Shown here piece after piece: positions 2,517 to 50,706 of a stretch of 64,000 nt of DNA. The translations under genes and the position numbers were made by a program. Every line of letters begins with the position of its first letter. The stretch's first letter is position 1. Below the pieces are notes generated by a model. It did not search any database. It was not told the DNA's origin and saw only the letters and a program-made list of their open reading frames with translations. Origin of the DNA: Promethearchaeia archaeon (GTDB taxonomy: Archaea; Asgardarchaeota; Lokiarchaeia; Sigyniarchaeales; SOKP01); contig JAWOCD010000017.1 in the NCBI GenBank assembly GCA_046483985.1, positions 32,001-96,000 on the forward strand. Direction: 5' to 3'.

Positions 2517-3911
2517 TTAAAAATTAGATAGGTCGCTATCACAGTTAGGGCAAGACCTCTCATCTCCTCTCAAGTGCGACCCGCATATTGGACAAATCTT
2601 TAACTTCGATTTAGAGTGATTAAATTCTTCATTATAACCGTCTTGTGTTGGGGTCCAAACTGACGATTTTCTATCACCTTGGGGGGACTCTCTCTCTTGT
2701 CTTTTTGTCCCTCCACTTTTGGTATCCCTCGTTCTTTTCTCTTGATATATAATTTTACCATTCTTTTTCCTAACTGTATATACACTTCCAAAAAACCCAC
2801 CCACTCTTATCTTCTTGACATTTTCCCCTCTCTCTTGAGGCTCGTTTCGTTTGATATTGGGAACAGTCCTCTTGCTTGGTTCTACTTTATTGGAGGTTCT
2901 TGGTTTTTCGAATTTATGGTTTTTCAAATCTGTGTCGACTTTGACCTCTTCTTTTGCTTGAGATTTAGGCTGGTTTAGTCCCATGACATCCTTAACAGTT
3001 TCGAGTTCAGTATCCATATCCTTTATCCTTTTAACTTCTCTTTCTTCTATTTGAAGTAAAATATGGCATTCCGGACAGCGGAAGATGTTTGGGATTCCAA
3101 TATTATTATCCATAACGTAGTTAGTTAGGCAACAATGATGAAATGCAGAACCACATTCTTCACATACTGAATGCACATCATTTATATCGACACATATCGG
3201 ACAAATAAGTTCTTCACAAAAGTAACAGGAGAGATTTTCCGTATTTTCAGGTTCCTCCAGAGTTTTTGCTAATTTTCGATAAAAATTATAATCGTCTTCA
3301 TCGATATGAATTTCGTTTCCTTTATCTTGAAATCGACGCACTAATTGCTTATTTTTTACTAATTTCTTAATAACATCTCGAAACTCATCTTTATCATGTA
3401 CATAGAAGATTTCGCCGTTTGTTTCGTCTACCAATACATTAAGTTTAACGTCATCCTTGAAAAACCGCTTTCCTTCTTCCTCTACTCTGATAATATCAAT
3501 AAACGTGGGAAAGATTTTAATTTTTGAAATCAAATTGAATAATGCGTCTTGATATTCTTCAGATAAATCACTGGGAGTGTCTGTAATTACAATAATTCTA
3601 TAAAATTTTGGTTTTTTCCGTACAGTCTCTGAAATGTAACTGAAGATATAAAACAAGCCGTTTTCGAAATGACTTTTTTTCTTAGGACGATTTTTCCAGT
3701 TTTCTTTAATAGCGTCTATAATAACCTCTGAATCCTTTTTATCCGTAATAAAAACCGGGTTTCCCTCCTCTTGAAAGAGTAAAGCTCCGTATCTTCCTTT
3801 CTGATTAACCTTTCGTTTATTTTCGATGTAAAACTTAATAGCTTTGGTAATATATCTTCTTTTCAAGAGCTTTTTTGATATATCAATATAAAAAAAAATA
3901 TCTTCTCCCAT
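2517..3911 (-). CDS. vWA + RING/PHD-type Zn finger + C-terminal Zn ribbon; tandem paralog of 893..2401
   Basis: EDIFFYIDIS, FENGLF, RIIVITDTPS, DDVKL, CYFC..CPIC..CEEC..HHCC..IFRCPEC shared with the neighbour. Confidence 0.75.
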   Translation of the reverse strand: MGEDIFFYIDISKKLLKRRYITKAIKFYIENKRKVNQKGRYGALLFQEEGNPVFITDKKDSEVIIDAIKENWKNRPKKKSHFENGLFYIFSYISETVRKKPKFYRIIVITDTPSDLSEEYQDALFNLISKIKIFPTFIDIIRVEEEGKRFFKDDVKLNVLVDETNGEIFYVHDKDEFRDVIKKLVKNKQLVRRFQDKGNEIHIDEDDYNFYRKLAKTLEEPENTENLSCYFCEELICPICVDINDVHSVCEECGSAFHHCCLTNYVMDNNIGIPNIFRCPECHILLQIEEREVKRIKDMDTELETVKDVMGLNQPKSQAKEEVKVDTDLKNHKFEKPRTSNKVEPSKRTVPNIKRNEPQERGENVKKIRVGGFFGSVYTVRKKNGKIIYQEKRTRDTKSGGTKRQERESPQGDRKSSVWTPTQDGYNEEFNHSKSKLKICPICGSHLRGDERSCPNCDSDLSNF

Positions 3912-28474: not shown

Positions 28475-28586
28475 TGTTTATCCATATTTTTTCCTCTGAT
28501 TTTCTCTCCAGCAATACAATAATAAAACTAATAAACTTTAAAATCAAAATTAATACAAGTTTACAGAATAATACTTAATAAGAATA

Positions 28587-29462
28587 GTGAAGAAGATGCC
28601 GATTAGTGAAGATTTGATAATAATCGAGTCAAAAGCTTATGTGAATATGCTTTTACATGTGTTACGCTTCGGCTCCGATGAACTTGATAAGAAATTATGG
28701 AGAGAGGTAATGGGGGTTTGTGTGGGGGAAATTGATGAGAAAAACGACCAAGTGGTTATCCACGATGCTATTCCTATAACTCACGGAAAAAAGGTGGAAG
28801 TGGAATATTCTGAAAATGACTATGCACGCGTTGAAATGCTTCAAGAGGAGTTTCCCGAGGGACAGTTTATTGTTGGCTGGTATCATTCTCACCCCGGGAT
28901 GGGGCCGTTTCTTTCGGAAGTGGATAAGGTCAATCAAATCTATTGGCAAAATGTGAATGCAAAAGCAGTGGCATTAGTCTTTGATCACACATTGCTTTCA
29001 GATGAGGGGCACGATGGATTGGAGATTTTTCGTCTTACAGACGTGGAAAAAGGAAATAAGAGTGATTTCCATGGCGTTGATTACAAAGTCAAGCCCCCAG
29101 AAGATAAGTCAATTTATCGGAAATTCGTTGAGATAGCAAATAACGTCCATAGAGAAGATCCCATTATGATGGAGGAAGGCGAGGTGGTAGATATGTTTGA
29201 AAAGATGAGCATTGGCACGGCAAAAAAGCCTGAAGAAGATGATCTTAAATCATATGTAATCAATAACACCACGATGATGCTCCAAACTATCAGGGATTTA
29301 AAAAATTCCATGACCACCGGAGTTACCCGATTGCAGAATTGGTTTGAAAAGGGGCTGCGGGAAGGAATAAAGGATCCCCTCAACGACTTAGAATACGAGT
29401 TCTGGCAATTAAAGAAACAGATTAAGAAACAGACTGGAATCGAAGACGATGAAGATTCTTAA
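28587..29462 (+). CDS. JAMM/MPN+ metalloprotease, Rpn11/CSN5-like, with helical C-terminal extension
   Basis: REVMGVCVG; IVGWYHSHPGMGPFLSEVD (E..HxH-x7-S-x2-D); AVALVFD. Confidence 0.92.
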   Translation: MKKMPISEDLIIIESKAYVNMLLHVLRFGSDELDKKLWREVMGVCVGEIDEKNDQVVIHDAIPITHGKKVEVEYSENDYARVEMLQEEFPEGQFIVGWYHSHPGMGPFLSEVDKVNQIYWQNVNAKAVALVFDHTLLSDEGHDGLEIFRLTDVEKGNKSDFHGVDYKVKPPEDKSIYRKFVEIANNVHREDPIMMEEGEVVDMFEKMSIGTAKKPEEDDLKSYVINNTTMMLQTIRDLKNSMTTGVTRLQNWFEKGLREGIKDPLNDLEYEFWQLKKQIKKQTGIEDDEDS

Positions 29463-29737
29463 TTTTCTTTTTCTCTTTTAATTTTACCATCCTTCTAATG
29501 CTCTTATTTAGATTTGAACTATCACGTCATAAATTTCAATGAGCATAACGAAATGTACAAACTCTTTCGTTTTTAATGAAATCATTAGTTGAAAGTTGGT
29601 AAAAAGACTCAAGTATCGCTACGGGGGAAGCCTAAATTATTACTTTTAAAGTTTACGCAAAACTTTAAATATATTGCTTGAACTTTAAATATCGAGGGGG
29701 AAAGAGCCCTATTTTGTCACTATTTCAAATACATATA

Positions 29738-29745
29738 TTTATATA
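29738..29745 (+). promoter_or_regulatory. TATA box of the putative ncRNA
   Basis: TTTATATA ending 24 nt before the first base of the closing stem at 29770. Confidence 0.45.
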
Positions 29746-29769
29746 TCACCATAAGTTTTAAGATAATAC

Positions 29770-29880
29770 AATTGGAATGAGAAAATTGTTTACGAAAAAG
29801 TGCACTAGAAAGGTTCTATACCTTTAGAGTGCCGTTATAGCTGAGCTATAACTAGTAAACGAAAAAACTCGATTCCAATT
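29770..29880 (+). ncRNA. candidate structured ncRNA (~110 nt, three-way junction), family unknown
   Basis: five nested helices in an ORF-free gap, upstream TATA box, downstream T-tract at 29889-29899. Confidence 0.5.
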
Positions 29881-29971
29881 TATAAAACTTTTTTCTTTTC
29901 ACATCATTAGTGGTTCAATCGATTTAATCAATTTAAATTTTGAAAAACTTGATGGGGTTAAATCTTTTCAT

Positions 29972-30616
29972 TTACTTTTTCTTTAATCCTTTGCAGATCT
30001 TCAATAACCCTTCAAAACCCTCTAATGTCCATTTTCCATCAATACGTCGATATGGAAACTTTTGGCATGCAATAGGCTTTATGGGATGAAGAACACAGAG
30101 GGAATCTTCCAGAAATATACAATCTCCCGTGGGATCTGTTTGAGCAATATACGATAAGCCCAAGTCCATCGCGTGTAGCGTGGTTTGAAAATCTTTCGGA
30201 ACGAATTTAGGCCATGACCACTTATACGGTCTCGGAAATAGATAGATATCTCCCAAAGCTTTGTGTTTGCGATGTTTACCTTCCCCCATATATTCATGAT
30301 GGTTGAAAAGAAAATCGTAAATTTTTTCTGTCTTCGGGATATCAATTAGTTTCGCACATTTTTCAGGATTGTTTCTCACGTATGCCATAAAATCTTCGTC
30401 CCATTCCGATTTCCATGAAGAATTATTCAAGCCAATAATGGAAATCTTTCTCGGATCGACTTGAAGGTTCTTATATACACCAGTTCTACTTTCTTGTTTC
30501 CAAACAAGTAAATCTTCTTTAAAAATAGGAACGTACCACCCTTGACGACAACAATTGCCGCATTGCACGCACTTGAACTTGTACTCCGAATGCTTTGATT
30601 TTTTCATAACTTCCAA
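29972..30616 (-). CDS. YkgJ-family CxxCxxCC protein
   Basis: CVQCGNCC..CIFL..CVLHPIKPIACQKFP. Confidence 0.85.
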   Translation of the reverse strand: MEVMKKSKHSEYKFKCVQCGNCCRQGWYVPIFKEDLLVWKQESRTGVYKNLQVDPRKISIIGLNNSSWKSEWDEDFMAYVRNNPEKCAKLIDIPKTEKIYDFLFNHHEYMGEGKHRKHKALGDIYLFPRPYKWSWPKFVPKDFQTTLHAMDLGLSYIAQTDPTGDCIFLEDSLCVLHPIKPIACQKFPYRRIDGKWTLEGFEGLLKICKGLKKK

Positions 30617-30778
30617 AGTCTAAATTTTCTTAGAATCTTTCCAGGTAAAATAGTATTAAAATTCATTTATTTTTTTCTGTGGCAAATTCTGCTTGAATTT
30701 CGCGAAGAATTATTAGGATTTAATTCGTGATAAAAGAATTATGCAAGTTCATGTGCATTATCTGAAATTTAAAGGGAT

Positions 30779-32668
30779 CTACTTAGTTATCCAAATCGGT
30801 GAGAGCCAAGCCATGTGATTATCGGGCAAATGAATTCGCACATAGTAGAACATAAATTCCTGGGATTTTTCAGGATGCATAAATGTGTCTTGAAAAAAAT
30901 CGGAATTATCTATGAATGTTTCCTTAAATGAGTGAGTATCGGGCTCTAAACTTGCAAAAATTTCATTATTCCGAATTAATTCAACTTTTTTAATAGTTAA
31001 TCCGCTAAACACTTTAATAAGAATCTCTCTTTTCGTTTTAAGGTGTGAATTTTCTTCTAAGTCTATGATATCTCCTAAAGAATGTCTGTTAATCCAAAAA
31101 TTACCAATAATCCGTGGACCTGTAGTTCCGTAACATTTTCTGCTTTTCAGTGCTTCCCAAATATTCTCTTTGGTTAGATCTTTTGCCCAGACACCAAGAA
31201 TTCCGGGGGGATAGATGCCGTTGCGGACATCAATGGGTCCAGAAGGATAAATTCCATAGTGATCGTCCCCTCCAGCAGTAAATCCCAACTTATTCCCCTG
31301 CTTTAGGGCGGTTTGGACAAAGCCTTCTTCTTTTTCTAAAACGGGCCCCCTTTCATCACCGTATTTTCCCCAACTGTATAATTTATAACGTGGTGGAAGT
31401 ATATTTCCATCCCGATATGAGTTTTCTTGATTCCCCCATGAAGAATATATCTCCACTAGATCTTCAAGAGAATCGTCAGAAAAAGTCCAATCTCGGTAGC
31501 CAGGTCTTACCGCGGTATGATGAGCTATCAAAAGGACTTGATCCCGATATCTTTTGAGATACTTAAAGAGTTTTGGAATCGAATTATATTTATTTAGTTC
31601 TGACCTGAGAATCGGTAAATTGTCGGACCGGTGATAGATACAGACATCTCCAAATCCTCCAGTATACCAGCTTCCCCATTCATATCCGAAAAAGCTAACA
31701 AAATCGTCTCGTTTATTATATTTGCGCACTATCTTTTTGATGTGGGAAAAATCAGCATCGGTAGTTTCCCAAGAGTGATCGTGCTCTGAGCACGTTCCAA
31801 AATCCAACTTAGCGTTAATAAGATTTTGAAAATATTGTTCTGCACTGATCATTCCATCACTCTTTCGGGTATGCCCATGAAGAAAACCCCAGTATAACTG
31901 ACGGTCTTCACCTTTTAACTTATTGACACATAAAATCGGATTTGAGTCAAAACTTTGATATTGCGTAGAAACACGAATCTTAAAGAGTCCCGGTTTATGA
32001 ATTTTCTTACTTTCAATAGTCATTATTCCATTTTGCGGATTGGGTTTGAGCCTTTCACTAATTTGTTTAAAAATAGAGGAGTTATGAATTAGAGCAATAT
32101 TTAATAACTTTTGATATTTTTCAATGGGATTGTAATATTTGTCTTCAAATCGGATAATAAATTTAAAAGGTTCGCCAGCCTCCACCATGGAGGGACATAA
32201 GATTGTTAAGTGATCGAACTGCTCTGATTCAACCGTAACTGTTGGCGGATTTTCGACATATAACACCTCACCATTCGGTAATCGGACAATTATTTCAATC
32301 CGTTTGTTCTCTTCAATAATCGATTGAACTAACGTGTGGTGAATGTTAATTTCAAAGGTTGTCATCTTCTCAATTGGATCACTCATAACCAAATATTGGA
32401 CGTAAAATTCCTTCCCAGTACAGAGCATGGGAAATAACTGAGAAGCCGATTCCGTTTTAAGTTGGAAGTAACCATCAAACCCAGAATCAAAGGGTTGAAC
32501 CTTATACCAATCATTTTTATTATTTCTCCCTCCGCGAAAGCGAAAGGTAATTGTTGAACTATTCGGTAACGTTTGGGGGAATGTAAATTTCATGGATATA
32601 TCCGCTTTTGATCGAACTTGAATATGTTGAGGCTCGATTGTTTTATCAAAAATTTGAATATACTTCAT
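30779..32668 (-). CDS. DUF3604/PHP-family metallohydrolase
   Basis: WGFLHGHT..SDG, SEHDH, GYEW, AHH, GFTAGGDDH, YGTTG, AWLSPIW. Confidence 0.82.
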   Translation of the reverse strand: MKYIQIFDKTIEPQHIQVRSKADISMKFTFPQTLPNSSTITFRFRGGRNNKNDWYKVQPFDSGFDGYFQLKTESASQLFPMLCTGKEFYVQYLVMSDPIEKMTTFEINIHHTLVQSIIEENKRIEIIVRLPNGEVLYVENPPTVTVESEQFDHLTILCPSMVEAGEPFKFIIRFEDKYYNPIEKYQKLLNIALIHNSSIFKQISERLKPNPQNGIMTIESKKIHKPGLFKIRVSTQYQSFDSNPILCVNKLKGEDRQLYWGFLHGHTRKSDGMISAEQYFQNLINAKLDFGTCSEHDHSWETTDADFSHIKKIVRKYNKRDDFVSFFGYEWGSWYTGGFGDVCIYHRSDNLPILRSELNKYNSIPKLFKYLKRYRDQVLLIAHHTAVRPGYRDWTFSDDSLEDLVEIYSSWGNQENSYRDGNILPPRYKLYSWGKYGDERGPVLEKEEGFVQTALKQGNKLGFTAGGDDHYGIYPSGPIDVRNGIYPPGILGVWAKDLTKENIWEALKSRKCYGTTGPRIIGNFWINRHSLGDIIDLEENSHLKTKREILIKVFSGLTIKKVELIRNNEIFASLEPDTHSFKETFIDNSDFFQDTFMHPEKSQEFMFYYVRIHLPDNHMAWLSPIWITK

Positions 32669-33823: not shown

Positions 33824-35537
33824 TATGCCGACATAAACAGATTTATGTCGGGTCTTATGACCTATCAGTTCATATAATATAATTCACCCATCTCCTGTTT
33901 CATAAACAGATATAAAGGGTTTTAATAACTGTAGATTGGCCCTAGTTTATTGATCTGATTAGAATCTTTTTTTTCTCTGCTGATTGCGCCCCTTACCTTT
34001 AAATATTAACATGAATTAGAGAAGTTAAGGAGTATAAAAGTTTACTATGATTATATTGGAATATAAGCGAAAAGATTCGATTTATCAAAAACAAATAACG
34101 GATCGGCTCTATGGATTAGAAATACGGCGATTTAACGGAAACATTCCAAAAGAACGTTATAAAGCAGAGAAATTATTATCAAACGTGCCGCGTAAAAAGA
34201 AGAAAAAACGGGGGAGAAAAAAGAATTATCTCGACCAATTCTATAAAATTGATCATTTTCTCAAGCGAGGAGAGTTGACCGAGATAAAACCCCATTATCT
34301 TTTACGATTCCGACATGTAGAGATTTTACCAGCCTTTAAAGTAAAGGCTCAGGGCATTCGAAAGGTAGAATATCTGATGCTCAAAGAATATAAATCATTT
34401 ACGGGATTTTTTGAATATCTTACAATGTGTAATGATTTTACCTACTTCGATGCCCTTCAGGTGAAATTAGAGGGAGAGGGAATAACATTTCGGAATAAGT
34501 TTTTGCATGACATCATCCTTTATGAACTCGCACGGATTCAGATCGGCATAGATACCTATACGGGTTTTATGAATACCGTGAGATTTATGCAACCGTTATT
34601 TTTAAGGAACCTCTTACATGACCCGGATTACTTTCCCGATGTGGATACCGTCAGCCATGTGTTGAGAGCCGTTCCGCTTGAAGCCTTAAAGAAGTACTTC
34701 TTTAAGTTGGTGGATGAGGCATTTCAATTCAAGATTGCTAAAAGTCGAATACTGATCTGGGACTGCCAATTCGTGCATTCAAATAGCAGTGACCGGTATC
34801 ATGCAACAGAAGGGAGTTATACTGACGAAGATGCGAGGTTTTGTAAGCATAATGGAAAAAATTACGGTGTGGGCTATAAAGTCTCCACCATTTATGGTTA
34901 CTGCGGAACACGGTCGGTGCCTCTTTTTTGCAAGTTATTTCCGGGAAATCAAGACGAATATTCCGTATTTCGGGACACTTTCGAGCAGTATTTTCAATTG
35001 GGATATCCCAAACCACAGATCATTTTAGGCGACGGAGGTCCTTATTCCATTGAGATTTTACGATGGCTCTTTAATCTGGAGATTGTCCCTCTCATAAAAG
35101 GGAGAAAAAATATTAAACATCAGAACGTGAAGAAGTTAAGCGATAAATACTATGTAAATATGGATTTTGTCCCGTATAATTGGAGTAAGGATGAGCTTCT
35201 TACCATTATGAGAGTTAGATCCGAAATTGAGCGATGCTTCGCCCATAACACGGTAGTCTACAACGCTCGCCGGGCGAATGTGCGGGGTATTCAAATGGTT
35301 TCCAAACATCGCTACTTGATTTTAATCTTAGACCTTCTTAAAATTCTGACCGCCTACAAAATCGGGCGCCCCGACTTAATCGGGAAATGCCGTATCTTTA
35401 CACGGACAAAACATGTGAATTTTGAGGCGGTTTTCCCTCCGCTTGCGGAAGAGAAAGGATATCAGACATTCCCGCCTCGTGAACGAAAAATGGCGACGAA
35501 ATTCTTCCATCCATAATTGAGATTTCCGTCGGTCTTA
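33824..35537 (+). mobile_element. insertion sequence (IS4/IS5-like DDE); ends approximate
   Basis: transposase ORF; left tatgccgacataaac versus reverse complement of right end taagaccgacggaaat; no clear target-site duplication. Confidence 0.55.
34047..35516 (+). CDS. DDE transposase (DDE_Tnp_1-like)
   Basis: LIWDCQF (D), GYKV, LGDGGPYS (D), RVRSEIERCF (E). Confidence 0.85.
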   Translation: MIILEYKRKDSIYQKQITDRLYGLEIRRFNGNIPKERYKAEKLLSNVPRKKKKKRGRKKNYLDQFYKIDHFLKRGELTEIKPHYLLRFRHVEILPAFKVKAQGIRKVEYLMLKEYKSFTGFFEYLTMCNDFTYFDALQVKLEGEGITFRNKFLHDIILYELARIQIGIDTYTGFMNTVRFMQPLFLRNLLHDPDYFPDVDTVSHVLRAVPLEALKKYFFKLVDEAFQFKIAKSRILIWDCQFVHSNSSDRYHATEGSYTDEDARFCKHNGKNYGVGYKVSTIYGYCGTRSVPLFCKLFPGNQDEYSVFRDTFEQYFQLGYPKPQIILGDGGPYSIEILRWLFNLEIVPLIKGRKNIKHQNVKKLSDKYYVNMDFVPYNWSKDELLTIMRVRSEIERCFAHNTVVYNARRANVRGIQMVSKHRYLILILDLLKILTAYKIGRPDLIGKCRIFTRTKHVNFEAVFPPLAEEKGYQTFPPRERKMATKFFHP

Positions 35538-39693: not shown

Positions 39694-39823
39694 TTTCCAC
39701 ATCAATCTTTCGATTTTCTATGGTTAGTTTATTTTGGAGATAAAATTACCGCGAAATGCACATTAACTAAAGTTGAAAAAGAAGAAAATCGGATTATCTT
39801 TGGTATGGAATGTTTTAACGATC

Positions 39824-39868
39824 TGCGAAAGAAGTCCCCATCCCTTTAGGGAGGGGATGAATTTCGTA
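39824..39868 (+). mobile_element. solo IS200/IS605-type terminal hairpin (copy 1)
   Basis: tgcgaaa-gaa-gtcccc-a-tccc-ttta-ggga-ggggat-gaa-tttcgta nested palindrome; no tnpA/tnpB nearby. Confidence 0.6.
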
Positions 39869-39928
39869 TATTATACAAACATTTTCTCTGGCGGAAAGAT
39901 ACAAAAAATAAAAAAATTAAATTGAGAC

Positions 39929-50662: not shown

Positions 50663-50706
50663 AAAAATATTTTTATAAATGAAAAGAATTCAGTCTTAGC
50701 GGGTAA

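What the first reader, a model, noticed from the sequence alone, without database searches (positions are those of the whole stretch)
29738..29899. Unannotated ~110-nt structured RNA with its own TATA box and T-tract terminator
Seen in an ORF-free 509-bp gap between convergent genes: P1 aattggaatgag (29770-81) with ctc-g-attccaatt (29868-80); P2 ttgtttac (29786-93) with gtaaacga (29855-62); P3 gcact/agtgc enclosing aaaggt/accttt via an AG/AG loop (29802-32); P4 gttatagc-tga-gctataac (29834-52). The G-U pair and A-rich loops favour the plus strand. TTTATATA ends 24 nt upstream and a T-tract follows. The UGA/GAU at the P1 top could alternatively form a kink-turn-like (L7Ae-binding) motif. I do not recognise a known RNA family.
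Basis: partly seen in the sequence, partly recalled or inferred. Interest (0 to 1): 0.7.

Follow-up and report, generated by a model that had tools for sequence, protein, structure and literature searches.

The report
Orphan folded small RNA gene candidate
A single-copy 111-base stretch between two genes of an Asgard archaeon folds into an unusually stable four-helix shape and carries the promoter and terminator signals of a small RNA gene, but nothing like it was found elsewhere and no transcript could be checked.

Summary
All four helices sit at the stated coordinates. The 111-nt core (29770-29880) folds at -39.0 kcal/mol, z -7.8, and 0 of 1000 shuffles reach that energy. After GC correction it is the 4th most stable distinct locus among 17,374 intergenic windows of this genome.

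Strand-specific signals favour a plus-strand transcript:
- An exact TTTAWATA box ends 24 nt before P1 and a T6CT4 tract starts 9 nt after it. This combination occurs at 114 of 988,216 intergenic positions.
- The plus strand has no T run longer than 3, whereas the minus strand carries T6, T5 and T4 runs.
- Unpaired bases are A-rich: 19 A against 6 T.

It is single-copy and has no abutting target duplication, so the MITE alternative is not supported. No Rfam family, tRNA, K-turn, C/D, H/ACA, SECIS or Ro partner fits.

No homologue was found in 134 family genomes, a 150-genome phylum sample, or metagenome, viral, phage and plasmid collections. No genome of the same genus was among those searched, so covariation cannot be tested. 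The two sequencing runs found do not cover the element.

Verdict: a credible but unproven orphan small-RNA gene of unknown function. Earlier scan notes report other orphan RNA genes in other Asgard genomes.

The parts
29738..29745 (+). Exact TATA-box consensus (TTTAWATA) ending 24 nt before the first paired base
   Evidence: Read. An exact box ending 22-27 nt upstream occurs at 3,070 of 988,216 intergenic start positions.
29768..29771 (+). Predicted transcription start (pyrimidine-purine step C29769/A29770 at the first base of P1)
   Evidence: Inferred from TATA spacing, using general knowledge of archaeal promoters (recalled). Not measured.
29770..29880 (+). 111-nt folded core: P1 and P2 form a 20-pair rod with an all-A 4x5 internal loop, closing a three-way junction that bears hairpins P3 and P4
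   Evidence: It remains a separate domain when the whole gap is folded.
29770..29781 (+). P1, 5' arm
29868..29880 (+). P1, 3' arm (G29871 bulged)
29786..29793 (+). P2, 5' arm
29855..29862 (+). P2, 3' arm (holds the single G-U pair, which is plus-strand specific)
29802..29832 (+). P3 hairpin with a symmetric AG/AG internal loop; the apical loop TTCTATA on a GG/CC-closed stem loosely recalls a T-loop (untested)
   Evidence: The T-loop likeness is recalled and was not tested.
29834..29852 (+). P4 hairpin, 8 perfect pairs, 3-nt loop
29889..29899 (+). T6CT4 tract, a candidate archaeal oligo-T terminator 9 nt after P1
   Evidence: Read. A T6 run within 20 nt after a 111-nt unit occurs at 50,681 of 988,216 positions; together with the TATA box, at 114 of 988,216.
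29664..29691 (+). Two further exact TATA-consensus boxes (29664-29671 and 29684-29691) inside a 12-nt direct repeat spaced 20 nt apart; possible extra starts or a regulator site
   Evidence: Their role is inferred.

Best explanation
The stretch is a single-copy, stand-alone gene for a non-coding RNA of about 120-130 nt, read from the plus strand. Transcription would start at about 29770 from the TATA box at 29738-29745 and stop in the T6CT4 tract at 29889-29899. The RNA would fold into a rod (P1 and P2, both ends paired) closing a three-way junction with two hairpins, and would keep a short U-ended 3' tail. Eighty of its 111 core bases are locked in helices and the free bases are mostly runs of A. 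I therefore think it more likely acts as a compact, nuclease-resistant protein-binding or scaffold RNA than as a seed-pairing antisense regulator. What is shown: the fold, its rarity, the strand-specific signals and the single copy. What is inferred: transcription, the RNA ends and any function.
For: Fold: the MFE equals the centroid with four nested helices, z -7.65 to -7.81, and 0 of 200 and 0 of 1000 shuffles reach the observed energy. It is the 4th distinct locus of 17,374 intergenic windows by GC-corrected energy. The loci ranked around it are real elements: 8 of the top 20 belong to repeat families of 38-53 copies, and one is a tRNA.

Strand:
- An exact TTTAWATA box ends 24 nt upstream and a T6 run starts 9 nt downstream. 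Jointly these occur at 114 of 988,216 intergenic positions.
- I read no TATA-like box at that spacing and no T5 run after the element on the minus strand.
- The longest T run inside the element is 3 on the plus strand, whereas the minus strand has T6, T5 and T4 runs that would act as internal oligo-T terminators.
- Unpaired bases are 19 A, 6 T, 5 G and 1 C (one-sided binomial 0.0073 for A against T).
- There is one G-U pair.

Both flanking genes have their own T tracts within 30 nt of their stop codons, so the element lies outside their 3' ends (read). No ORF of 20 aa or more overlaps the element. It is single-copy.
Against: No transcript evidence: the one RNA run that holds this organism covers part of the JAB gene but not 29760-29843.

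No homologue, and hence no covariation:
- BLAST in 60 relatives gave only short A/T-rich flank matches.
- The covariance model found nothing credible in 100 relatives, 134 family genomes, 150 phylum genomes or the nearest genus G009.
- It found nothing with filters off on 13 loci around relatives of the two flanking genes.

Thirty-nine of the 40 pairs are Watson-Crick and both strands fold almost equally well. That is also what a young DNA palindrome would look like.

The promoter check against this genome's own tRNA genes is weak. Of 29 ARAGORN predictions, 12 have a box within one mismatch of the consensus, only 3 of these end 22-27 nt upstream, and only 8 of 29 have a T5 run within 30 nt downstream.

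The TATA and T-tract criteria were set after seeing the element, so the 114 of 988,216 figure is optimistic.
Confidence: 0.5

Rival explanations
1. A DNA-level palindrome cluster. It would be a relic of a lost mobile, plasmid or viral element (for example a decayed transposon end or a single-strand origin) that folds on paper but is not a functional RNA gene.
For: The complementarity is almost perfect (39 of 40 pairs Watson-Crick) and both strands fold nearly equally well. The genome is rich in hairpin-bearing repeat families: 8 of the 20 most structured intergenic loci have 38-53 copies (earlier notes call them IS200/IS605 mini-elements). A DDE transposase gene lies 4 kb away at 34047-35516. 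Gene order here is not kept in the nearest genus.
Against: It is single-copy by BLAST and by covariance model. The P1 arm 12-mer occurs only 3 times in the genome, which by my own estimate is about the chance number. No direct repeat abuts both ends. There is no match in phage or plasmid records, in viral contigs or in 185,579 species genomes for the P1-gap-P1 pattern. This reading does not explain the plus-strand-only TATA and T-tract geometry or the A-rich unpaired bases.
Confidence: 0.2
2. A young or neutral local structure, for example from small inverted duplications in an AT-rich spacer. It would have no function, whether or not it is spuriously transcribed.
For: It is an orphan in every collection searched. 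The helices are very clean, as expected for something recent.
Against: Four separate perfectly nested helices, z about -7.8, rank 4 of the intergenic loci, and correctly spaced promoter and terminator signals are a lot to arise together without selection.
Confidence: 0.15
3. A cis-acting spacer element that insulates or terminates the two convergent transcription units.
For: It lies between convergent genes. On the minus strand it carries T6, T5 and T4 runs, and on the plus strand it is followed by T6CT4.
Against: Both genes already have T tracts within 30 nt of their stop codons. Archaeal termination needs oligo-T and no elaborate fold (general knowledge; PMC8716108 seen only as a listing with the start of its abstract). 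This reading does not explain the consensus TATA box just upstream.
Confidence: 0.08
4. A near-leaderless mini-mRNA for a 16-residue basic peptide (ATG at 29777, stop at 29825-29827).
For: The ORF exists and its ATG lies 7 nt after the predicted start.
Against: The start codon and most of the frame are buried in P1-P3. The ORF is very short, no Shine-Dalgarno-like sequence is seen, and no relatives exist to test coding conservation.
Confidence: 0.04

Closest known systems
Stand-alone intergenic small RNAs of archaea (as catalogued in Haloferax, Methanosarcina and Sulfolobus; recalled, no paper read here)
   Same: Own TATA-type promoter, oligo-T end, about 100-200 nt, non-coding, often restricted to one genus.
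   Different: No transcript has been shown here. The core is almost fully paired, and the only free stretches are runs of A, so no obvious seed region is exposed.
Closed-rod RNP RNAs such as Y RNA and vault RNA (recalled)
   Same: About 100 nt, 5' and 3' ends paired into a long stem with an internal loop, a U-tract end, single-copy.
   Different: No Rfam match. No TROVE/Ro60 gene was found in this 97%-complete genome. The bulged-helix Ro site is not evident. The vault protein was not searched for.
MITEs and the gene-less IS200/IS605 mini-elements (PATEs) of this genome
   Same: Short, non-coding, hairpin-rich, intergenic. Such families fill 8 of the 20 most structured intergenic loci.
   Different: One copy against 38-53. 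It shares no sequence with those families, has no target duplication and shows no terminal-repeat family.
Orphan RNA genes noted earlier in this scan in other Asgard genomes (e1-5628637, about 170-190 nt, kept within one genus; e1-5577964, about 355 nt, within one family)
   Same: Gene-free gap, own TATA box, U-tract terminator, no catalogued family, Asgard host.
   Different: Those had relatives to compare. This one has none, because no genome of the same genus was among those searched. No sequence relation to them could be tested, since the notes give no sequences.

Membership tests
Any Rfam 15 family | Covariance-model score at or above the family's gathering score | tested here: not met
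   0 matches in the whole window. Lax scans of 601 and 139 bases give only noise; the best is ncS54 at 20.4 bits against a 43-bit cut-off, on the minus strand.
tRNA / tRNA-like | Cloverleaf recognised by ARAGORN or by Rfam RF00005 | tested here: not met
   ARAGORN finds 0 genes in the window. No RF00005 match even at E up to 10.
Kink-turn (L7Ae-binding) RNA | Canonical stem, 3-nt bulge, then tandem sheared G-A / A-G pairs | tested here: not met
   Read. The P1/P2 internal loop is all A. The P3 loop is a symmetric 5'-AG/5'-AG loop without a bulge. The UGA/GAU alternative at P1 gives a 1-nt bulge only. The motif definition is recalled.
C/D box sRNA | C box RUGAUGA near the 5' end and D box CUGA near the 3' end | tested here: not met
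   No RUGAUGA in 29760-29900. The only CUGA is in the P4 loop. No Rfam C/D match above noise.
H/ACA sRNA | Hairpin with a pseudouridylation pocket and an ACA box about 14 nt 3' of it | tested here: not met
   No ACA follows P1, and the internal loops are 4x5 all-A and 2x2. The definition is recalled.
MITE | Many copies | tested here: not met
   One copy by BLAST at E up to 10 and by covariance model. None in 134 family genomes apart from one chance hit inside an ORF.
MITE | Terminal inverted repeats shared with a family, flanked by a target-site duplication | tested here: not met
   The P1 arm 12-mer occurs 3 times in the genome. The P1-gap-P1 pattern has 0 matches in species genomes and viral contigs. 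No direct repeat abuts both ends.
IS200/IS605 omega-RNA end / PATE | Sequence relation to a tnpB 3' end or to the genome's PATE families | tested here: not met
   No BLAST relation to any other locus of the genome, while the structured repeat families have 38-53 copies. No tnpB is next to it.
Y RNA | A Ro60 (TROVE) partner encoded in the genome | tested here: not met
   PF05731 gives 0 matches in the own genome (97% complete); the control rang in 2 of 14 control genomes.
SECIS element | Lies in the 3' region of a gene with an in-frame UGA | tested here: not met
   Reading TGA as U leaves both flanking genes and the DUF3604 gene unchanged at 291, 214 and 629 aa. Their lengths match their homologues.
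Stand-alone archaeal sRNA gene (generic kind) | Own promoter and terminator signals | tested here: met
   An exact TATA consensus ends 24 nt upstream and a T6CT4 tract starts 9 nt downstream. The joint chance frequency is 114 of 988,216.
Stand-alone archaeal sRNA gene (generic kind) | A discrete transcript is made | not testable with these tools
   Two runs hold small shares of the region, and their contigs do not cover 29760-29843.
Stand-alone archaeal sRNA gene (generic kind) | Conserved, with compensatory base changes | tested here: inconclusive
   No homologue was found anywhere. No genome of the same genus was among those searched (G000 is the only genome of genus g1), and the nearest orthologue of the JAB gene is only 66% identical in protein.

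The most novel reading that the evidence does not exclude
The element is a lineage-specific Asgard ribonucleoprotein RNA. It would be a compact RNA with both ends sealed in a rod, a three-way junction held together by its A-runs, a T-loop-like hairpin and a U-ended tail. It would be bound by a dedicated protein or an Sm-like protein, and would be analogous in design to eukaryotic Y or vault RNAs but unrelated to them in sequence. Together with the other orphan RNA genes noted in Asgard genomes, it would point to a fast-evolving set of structured RNAs in the archaeal relatives of eukaryotes.
Probability: 0.1. Interest if true: 0.55.

Novelty: new member of a known kind. Interest (0 to 1): 0.3.

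Why it matters
In the two literature searches made here (listings only) I found no catalogue of small RNAs for Asgard archaea. If this element is transcribed, it adds a well-defined, easily testable structured RNA to that blank. It also shows that ranking intergenic folds by GC-corrected energy and then checking TATA and T-tract spacing picks out such genes in these AT-rich genomes. On present evidence it is one unverified orphan candidate from a metagenome-type assembly. Its value is as a target for RNA sequencing, not as a finding in itself.

Tried and rejected
- **Expression.** One search for runs gave two small-share holders. Laid on 28500-31000, the DNA run X1 has an identical 189-nt contig at 29553-29741. 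The RNA-library run X2 has an identical 188-nt contig at 28800-28987, inside the JAB gene. Neither covers 29760-29843, and the 40-nt pieces at 29898-29937 carry 6-7 differences. This says nothing either way.
- **Synteny.** The JAB gene has one clear orthologue (G009, 66% identity), and it is followed there by a different gene. The CxxCxxCC gene has only 26-41% relatives. The covariance model with filters off on these 13 loci gave only E values of 0.59 or worse. The best hit, next to a paralogue in the own genome (L068), overlaps a gene end and folds at z -2.3.
- **Family search.** The one weak hit (G132, E 0.59) lies inside a 475-aa ORF and does not fold alike.
- **Metagenome contigs.** The JAB protein found no relative. 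The P4 19-mer found one unrelated terminator-like hairpin in L070, where only the 19 bases match.
- **Pattern scans.**
  - Species genomes: two patterns, 0 matches.
  - Viral contigs: three patterns, 0 matches.
  - Phage and plasmid records: no match.
- **Families.** The K-turn, C/D, H/ACA, SECIS, Y RNA, tRNA and omega-RNA readings were rejected, as set out in the membership table.
- **Repeats and extra helix.**
  - The 12-nt repeat shared by 29651-29662 and 29788-29799 (one mismatch) is about what chance gives in 800 bases, by my own estimate.
  - The 13-pair purine/pyrimidine helix 29694-29706 with 29888-29900 in the whole-gap fold is G-U rich and low-complexity. I give it no weight.
- **Literature.** Two searches found no Asgard small-RNA catalogue (listings and abstract starts only; no paper was opened).
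- **Method note.** A 6-mer inverted-repeat prefilter and RNALfold on the whole genome (too slow) were dropped in favour of folding all intergenic windows.

Full report
**What is there.** The window's 509-bp gap 29463-29971 lies between a plus-strand JAB/MPN-domain gene (28587-29462) and a minus-strand CxxCxxCC-domain gene (29972-30616). RNAfold returns them as both the MFE and the centroid structure:
- P1: 12 pairs with one bulged G.
- An all-A 4x5 internal loop.
- P2: 8 pairs, including the single G-U pair.
- A three-way junction bearing P3 (5 + 6 pairs around an AG/AG loop) and P4 (8 pairs, 3-nt loop).

In all there are 40 pairs, 39 of them Watson-Crick, with a mean pair probability of 0.96. 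When the whole gap is folded, the element stays a separate domain.

**Is it more than chance?** Dinucleotide shuffles give z -7.65 (0 of 200 as stable) and z -7.81 (0 of 1000).

As an empirical yardstick I folded all 17,374 intergenic 120-nt windows of the genome (step 30, plus strand) and corrected the energies for GC content. The element is the 4th distinct locus; by raw energy its window ranks 99th. On its own 110-kb contig, coding DNA included, it is the third lowest local energy.

The company it keeps is real biology. Of the top 20 loci:
- 8 belong to repeat families of 38-53 copies.
- 5 have 2-6 copies.
- 7 are single-copy: this element, an intron-bearing tRNA (the only Rfam hit among the other 19) and five unknowns.

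**Which strand, and is it a transcription unit?** The fold itself is nearly symmetric (minus strand z -7.14, -8.13). Four other features favour the plus strand:
1. An exact TTTAWATA box (29738-29745) ends 24 nt before P1, with a C/A step at 29769/29770. A T6CT4 tract starts 9 nt after P1. Across 988,216 intergenic start positions on both strands, the box at 22-27 nt occurs at 3,070, a T6 run within 20 nt after a 111-nt unit at 50,681, and both together at 114.
2. Reading, the minus strand has neither a TATA-like box at that spacing nor a T5 run after the element.
3. Inside the element the longest plus-strand T run is 3. The minus strand carries T6, T5 and T4 runs, which would act as oligo-T terminators.
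4. The 31 unpaired bases are 19 A, 6 T, 5 G and 1 C (binomial 0.0073), although the gap as a whole has slightly more T than A.

Two more exact TATA boxes lie upstream at 29664-29671 and 29684-29691, inside a 12-nt direct repeat. Both flanking genes have their own T tracts within 30 nt of their stop codons, so the element is not simply their 3' end.

There are caveats. I chose the criteria after seeing the element. A calibration on this genome's own tRNA genes was noisy: only 3 of 12 near-consensus boxes end 22-27 nt upstream, and a T5 run follows only 8 of 29 predictions. Promoter geometry and U-tract termination rest on general knowledge of archaeal transcription. PMC7289017 and PMC8716108 were seen only as a search listing with the start of their abstracts.

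**Not a MITE.**
- BLAST at E up to 10 finds only the element itself in the 4.06-Mb genome, and so does the covariance model.
- The P1 arm 12-mer occurs 3 times in the genome and 58 times within one mismatch, which by my own estimate is about chance.
- No direct repeat abuts both ends.
- The P1-gap-P1 pattern has 0 matches in the 185,579-species genome collection and in viral contigs.

Earlier notes of this scan describe 24-45-copy IS200/IS605 mini-elements in this genome. I saw such families, and the element shares no sequence with them.

**No relatives anywhere.**
- BLAST in 60 relatives gave only short matches in the A/T-rich flanks.
- A covariance model built from the single sequence and its fold (R1) found nothing at E up to 1 in 100 relatives.
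- At E up to 5 in 134 genomes of the same family it gave one chance hit, inside an ORF.
- It found nothing at E up to 10 in the nearest genus, and nothing at E up to 1 in 150 genomes drawn across the phylum.
- Metagenome contigs, viral contigs, phage records and plasmid records gave nothing related.

This absence is weak evidence. No other genome of this genus was among those searched, and the best orthologue of the neighbouring JAB gene is only 66% identical in protein and sits in a different gene order. A single-sequence model run with speed filters has limited reach at that distance. Covariation, the decisive computational test, therefore cannot be run.

**Known families.**
- Rfam gives nothing at gathering scores and only noise in lax scans.
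- ARAGORN finds no tRNA.
- The kink-turn suggestion fails on reading. No 3-nt bulge sits beside tandem sheared G-A pairs, and the loops are all-A or a symmetric AG/AG loop.
- There is no C box and no ACA box.
- There is no Ro60/TROVE gene in the genome.
However, reading TGA as Sec changes none of the neighbouring genes, so a SECIS element has no client here.
- The host is an Asgard archaeon. My own check is four actin-family hits above the cut-off, the best at 439.6 bits. Earlier notes call it Lokiarchaeia-type.

**Expression.** Only two runs hold small shares of the region. Their contigs match the organism exactly at 29553-29741 (DNA run) and 28800-28987 (RNA library) but do not reach the element. 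This is no evidence either way.

**Reading.** The best-supported explanation (about 0.5) is a stand-alone, single-copy gene for a plus-strand non-coding RNA of about 120-130 nt. Both ends are sealed in a 20-pair rod, 72% of the core is paired, and the free stretches are runs of A that suit tertiary packing more than target pairing. I therefore favour a protein-binding or scaffold role over antisense regulation, but that step is inference only.

Rivals:
- A DNA-level palindromic relic of a lost mobile element (0.2).
- A young neutral structure (0.15).
- A cis-acting spacer or terminator element (0.08).
- A 16-codon mini-ORF starting at 29777 (0.04).

**Novelty and weight.** It belongs to no described family, but the kind (an orphan intergenic archaeal small RNA) is known, and earlier notes of this scan report similar orphan RNA genes in other Asgard genomes (e1-5628637, e1-5577964). 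Without a transcript or covariation it remains a good candidate and not a discovery, so I score interest at 0.3.

Noticed in passing
window 39791-39910 (G000:C126:71791-71910): A strongly folding intergenic stretch that is one copy of a repeat family with 53 BLAST matches in the genome. Other loci in the top-20 list also give 53 matches and carry the same hairpin. It is probably the IS200/IS605 mini-element family described in earlier notes.
   Followed up: partly
G000:C70:93-179: A single-copy intergenic fold with the same overall design (a 13-pair closing stem around two hairpins). It is strongly strand-asymmetric (-36.3 against -24.8 kcal/mol) and a TTTTAAAA box ends about 19 nt upstream. 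No Rfam hit. Possibly another orphan RNA gene.
   Followed up: partly
G000:C17:80071-80190: A single-copy structured stretch (-34.5 against -25.2 kcal/mol) lying directly in front of an ATG-started frame at about 80203. It could be a structured mRNA leader.
   Followed up: no
G000:C81:511-630: The most stable intergenic fold of the genome: a GC-rich, roughly 110-nt near-perfect hairpin (-60.6 kcal/mol), single-copy, no Rfam hit.
   Followed up: no
window 29645-29692: A perfect 10-pair hairpin (29645-29654 with 29660-29669) overlaps the first of two 12-nt direct repeats (AACTTTAAATAT, 20 nt apart), each of which holds an exact TATA consensus. Possibly a regulator site or extra promoters for the same unit.
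   Followed up: partly
window 29694-29706 with 29888-29900: In the whole-gap fold a 13-pair, G-U-rich purine/pyrimidine helix joins the stretch just after the first upstream TATA box to the T-tract terminator and encloses the element. Probably a low-complexity coincidence.
   Followed up: no
window 34047-35516: A 489-aa ORF with a DDE transposase domain (PF01609), 4 kb from the element. Its ends were not compared with P1 beyond the genome-wide arm count.
   Followed up: partly
window 28587-29462 and relatives: The JAB/MPN gene has many paralogues in this family of genomes, often as tandem pairs of roughly 450-500-aa open frames. The 291-aa form here has only one clear orthologue (G009).
   Followed up: no
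G000:C17 and C37: ARAGORN predicts tRNA-SeC genes, in line with earlier notes on selenoproteins in this genome.
   Followed up: no
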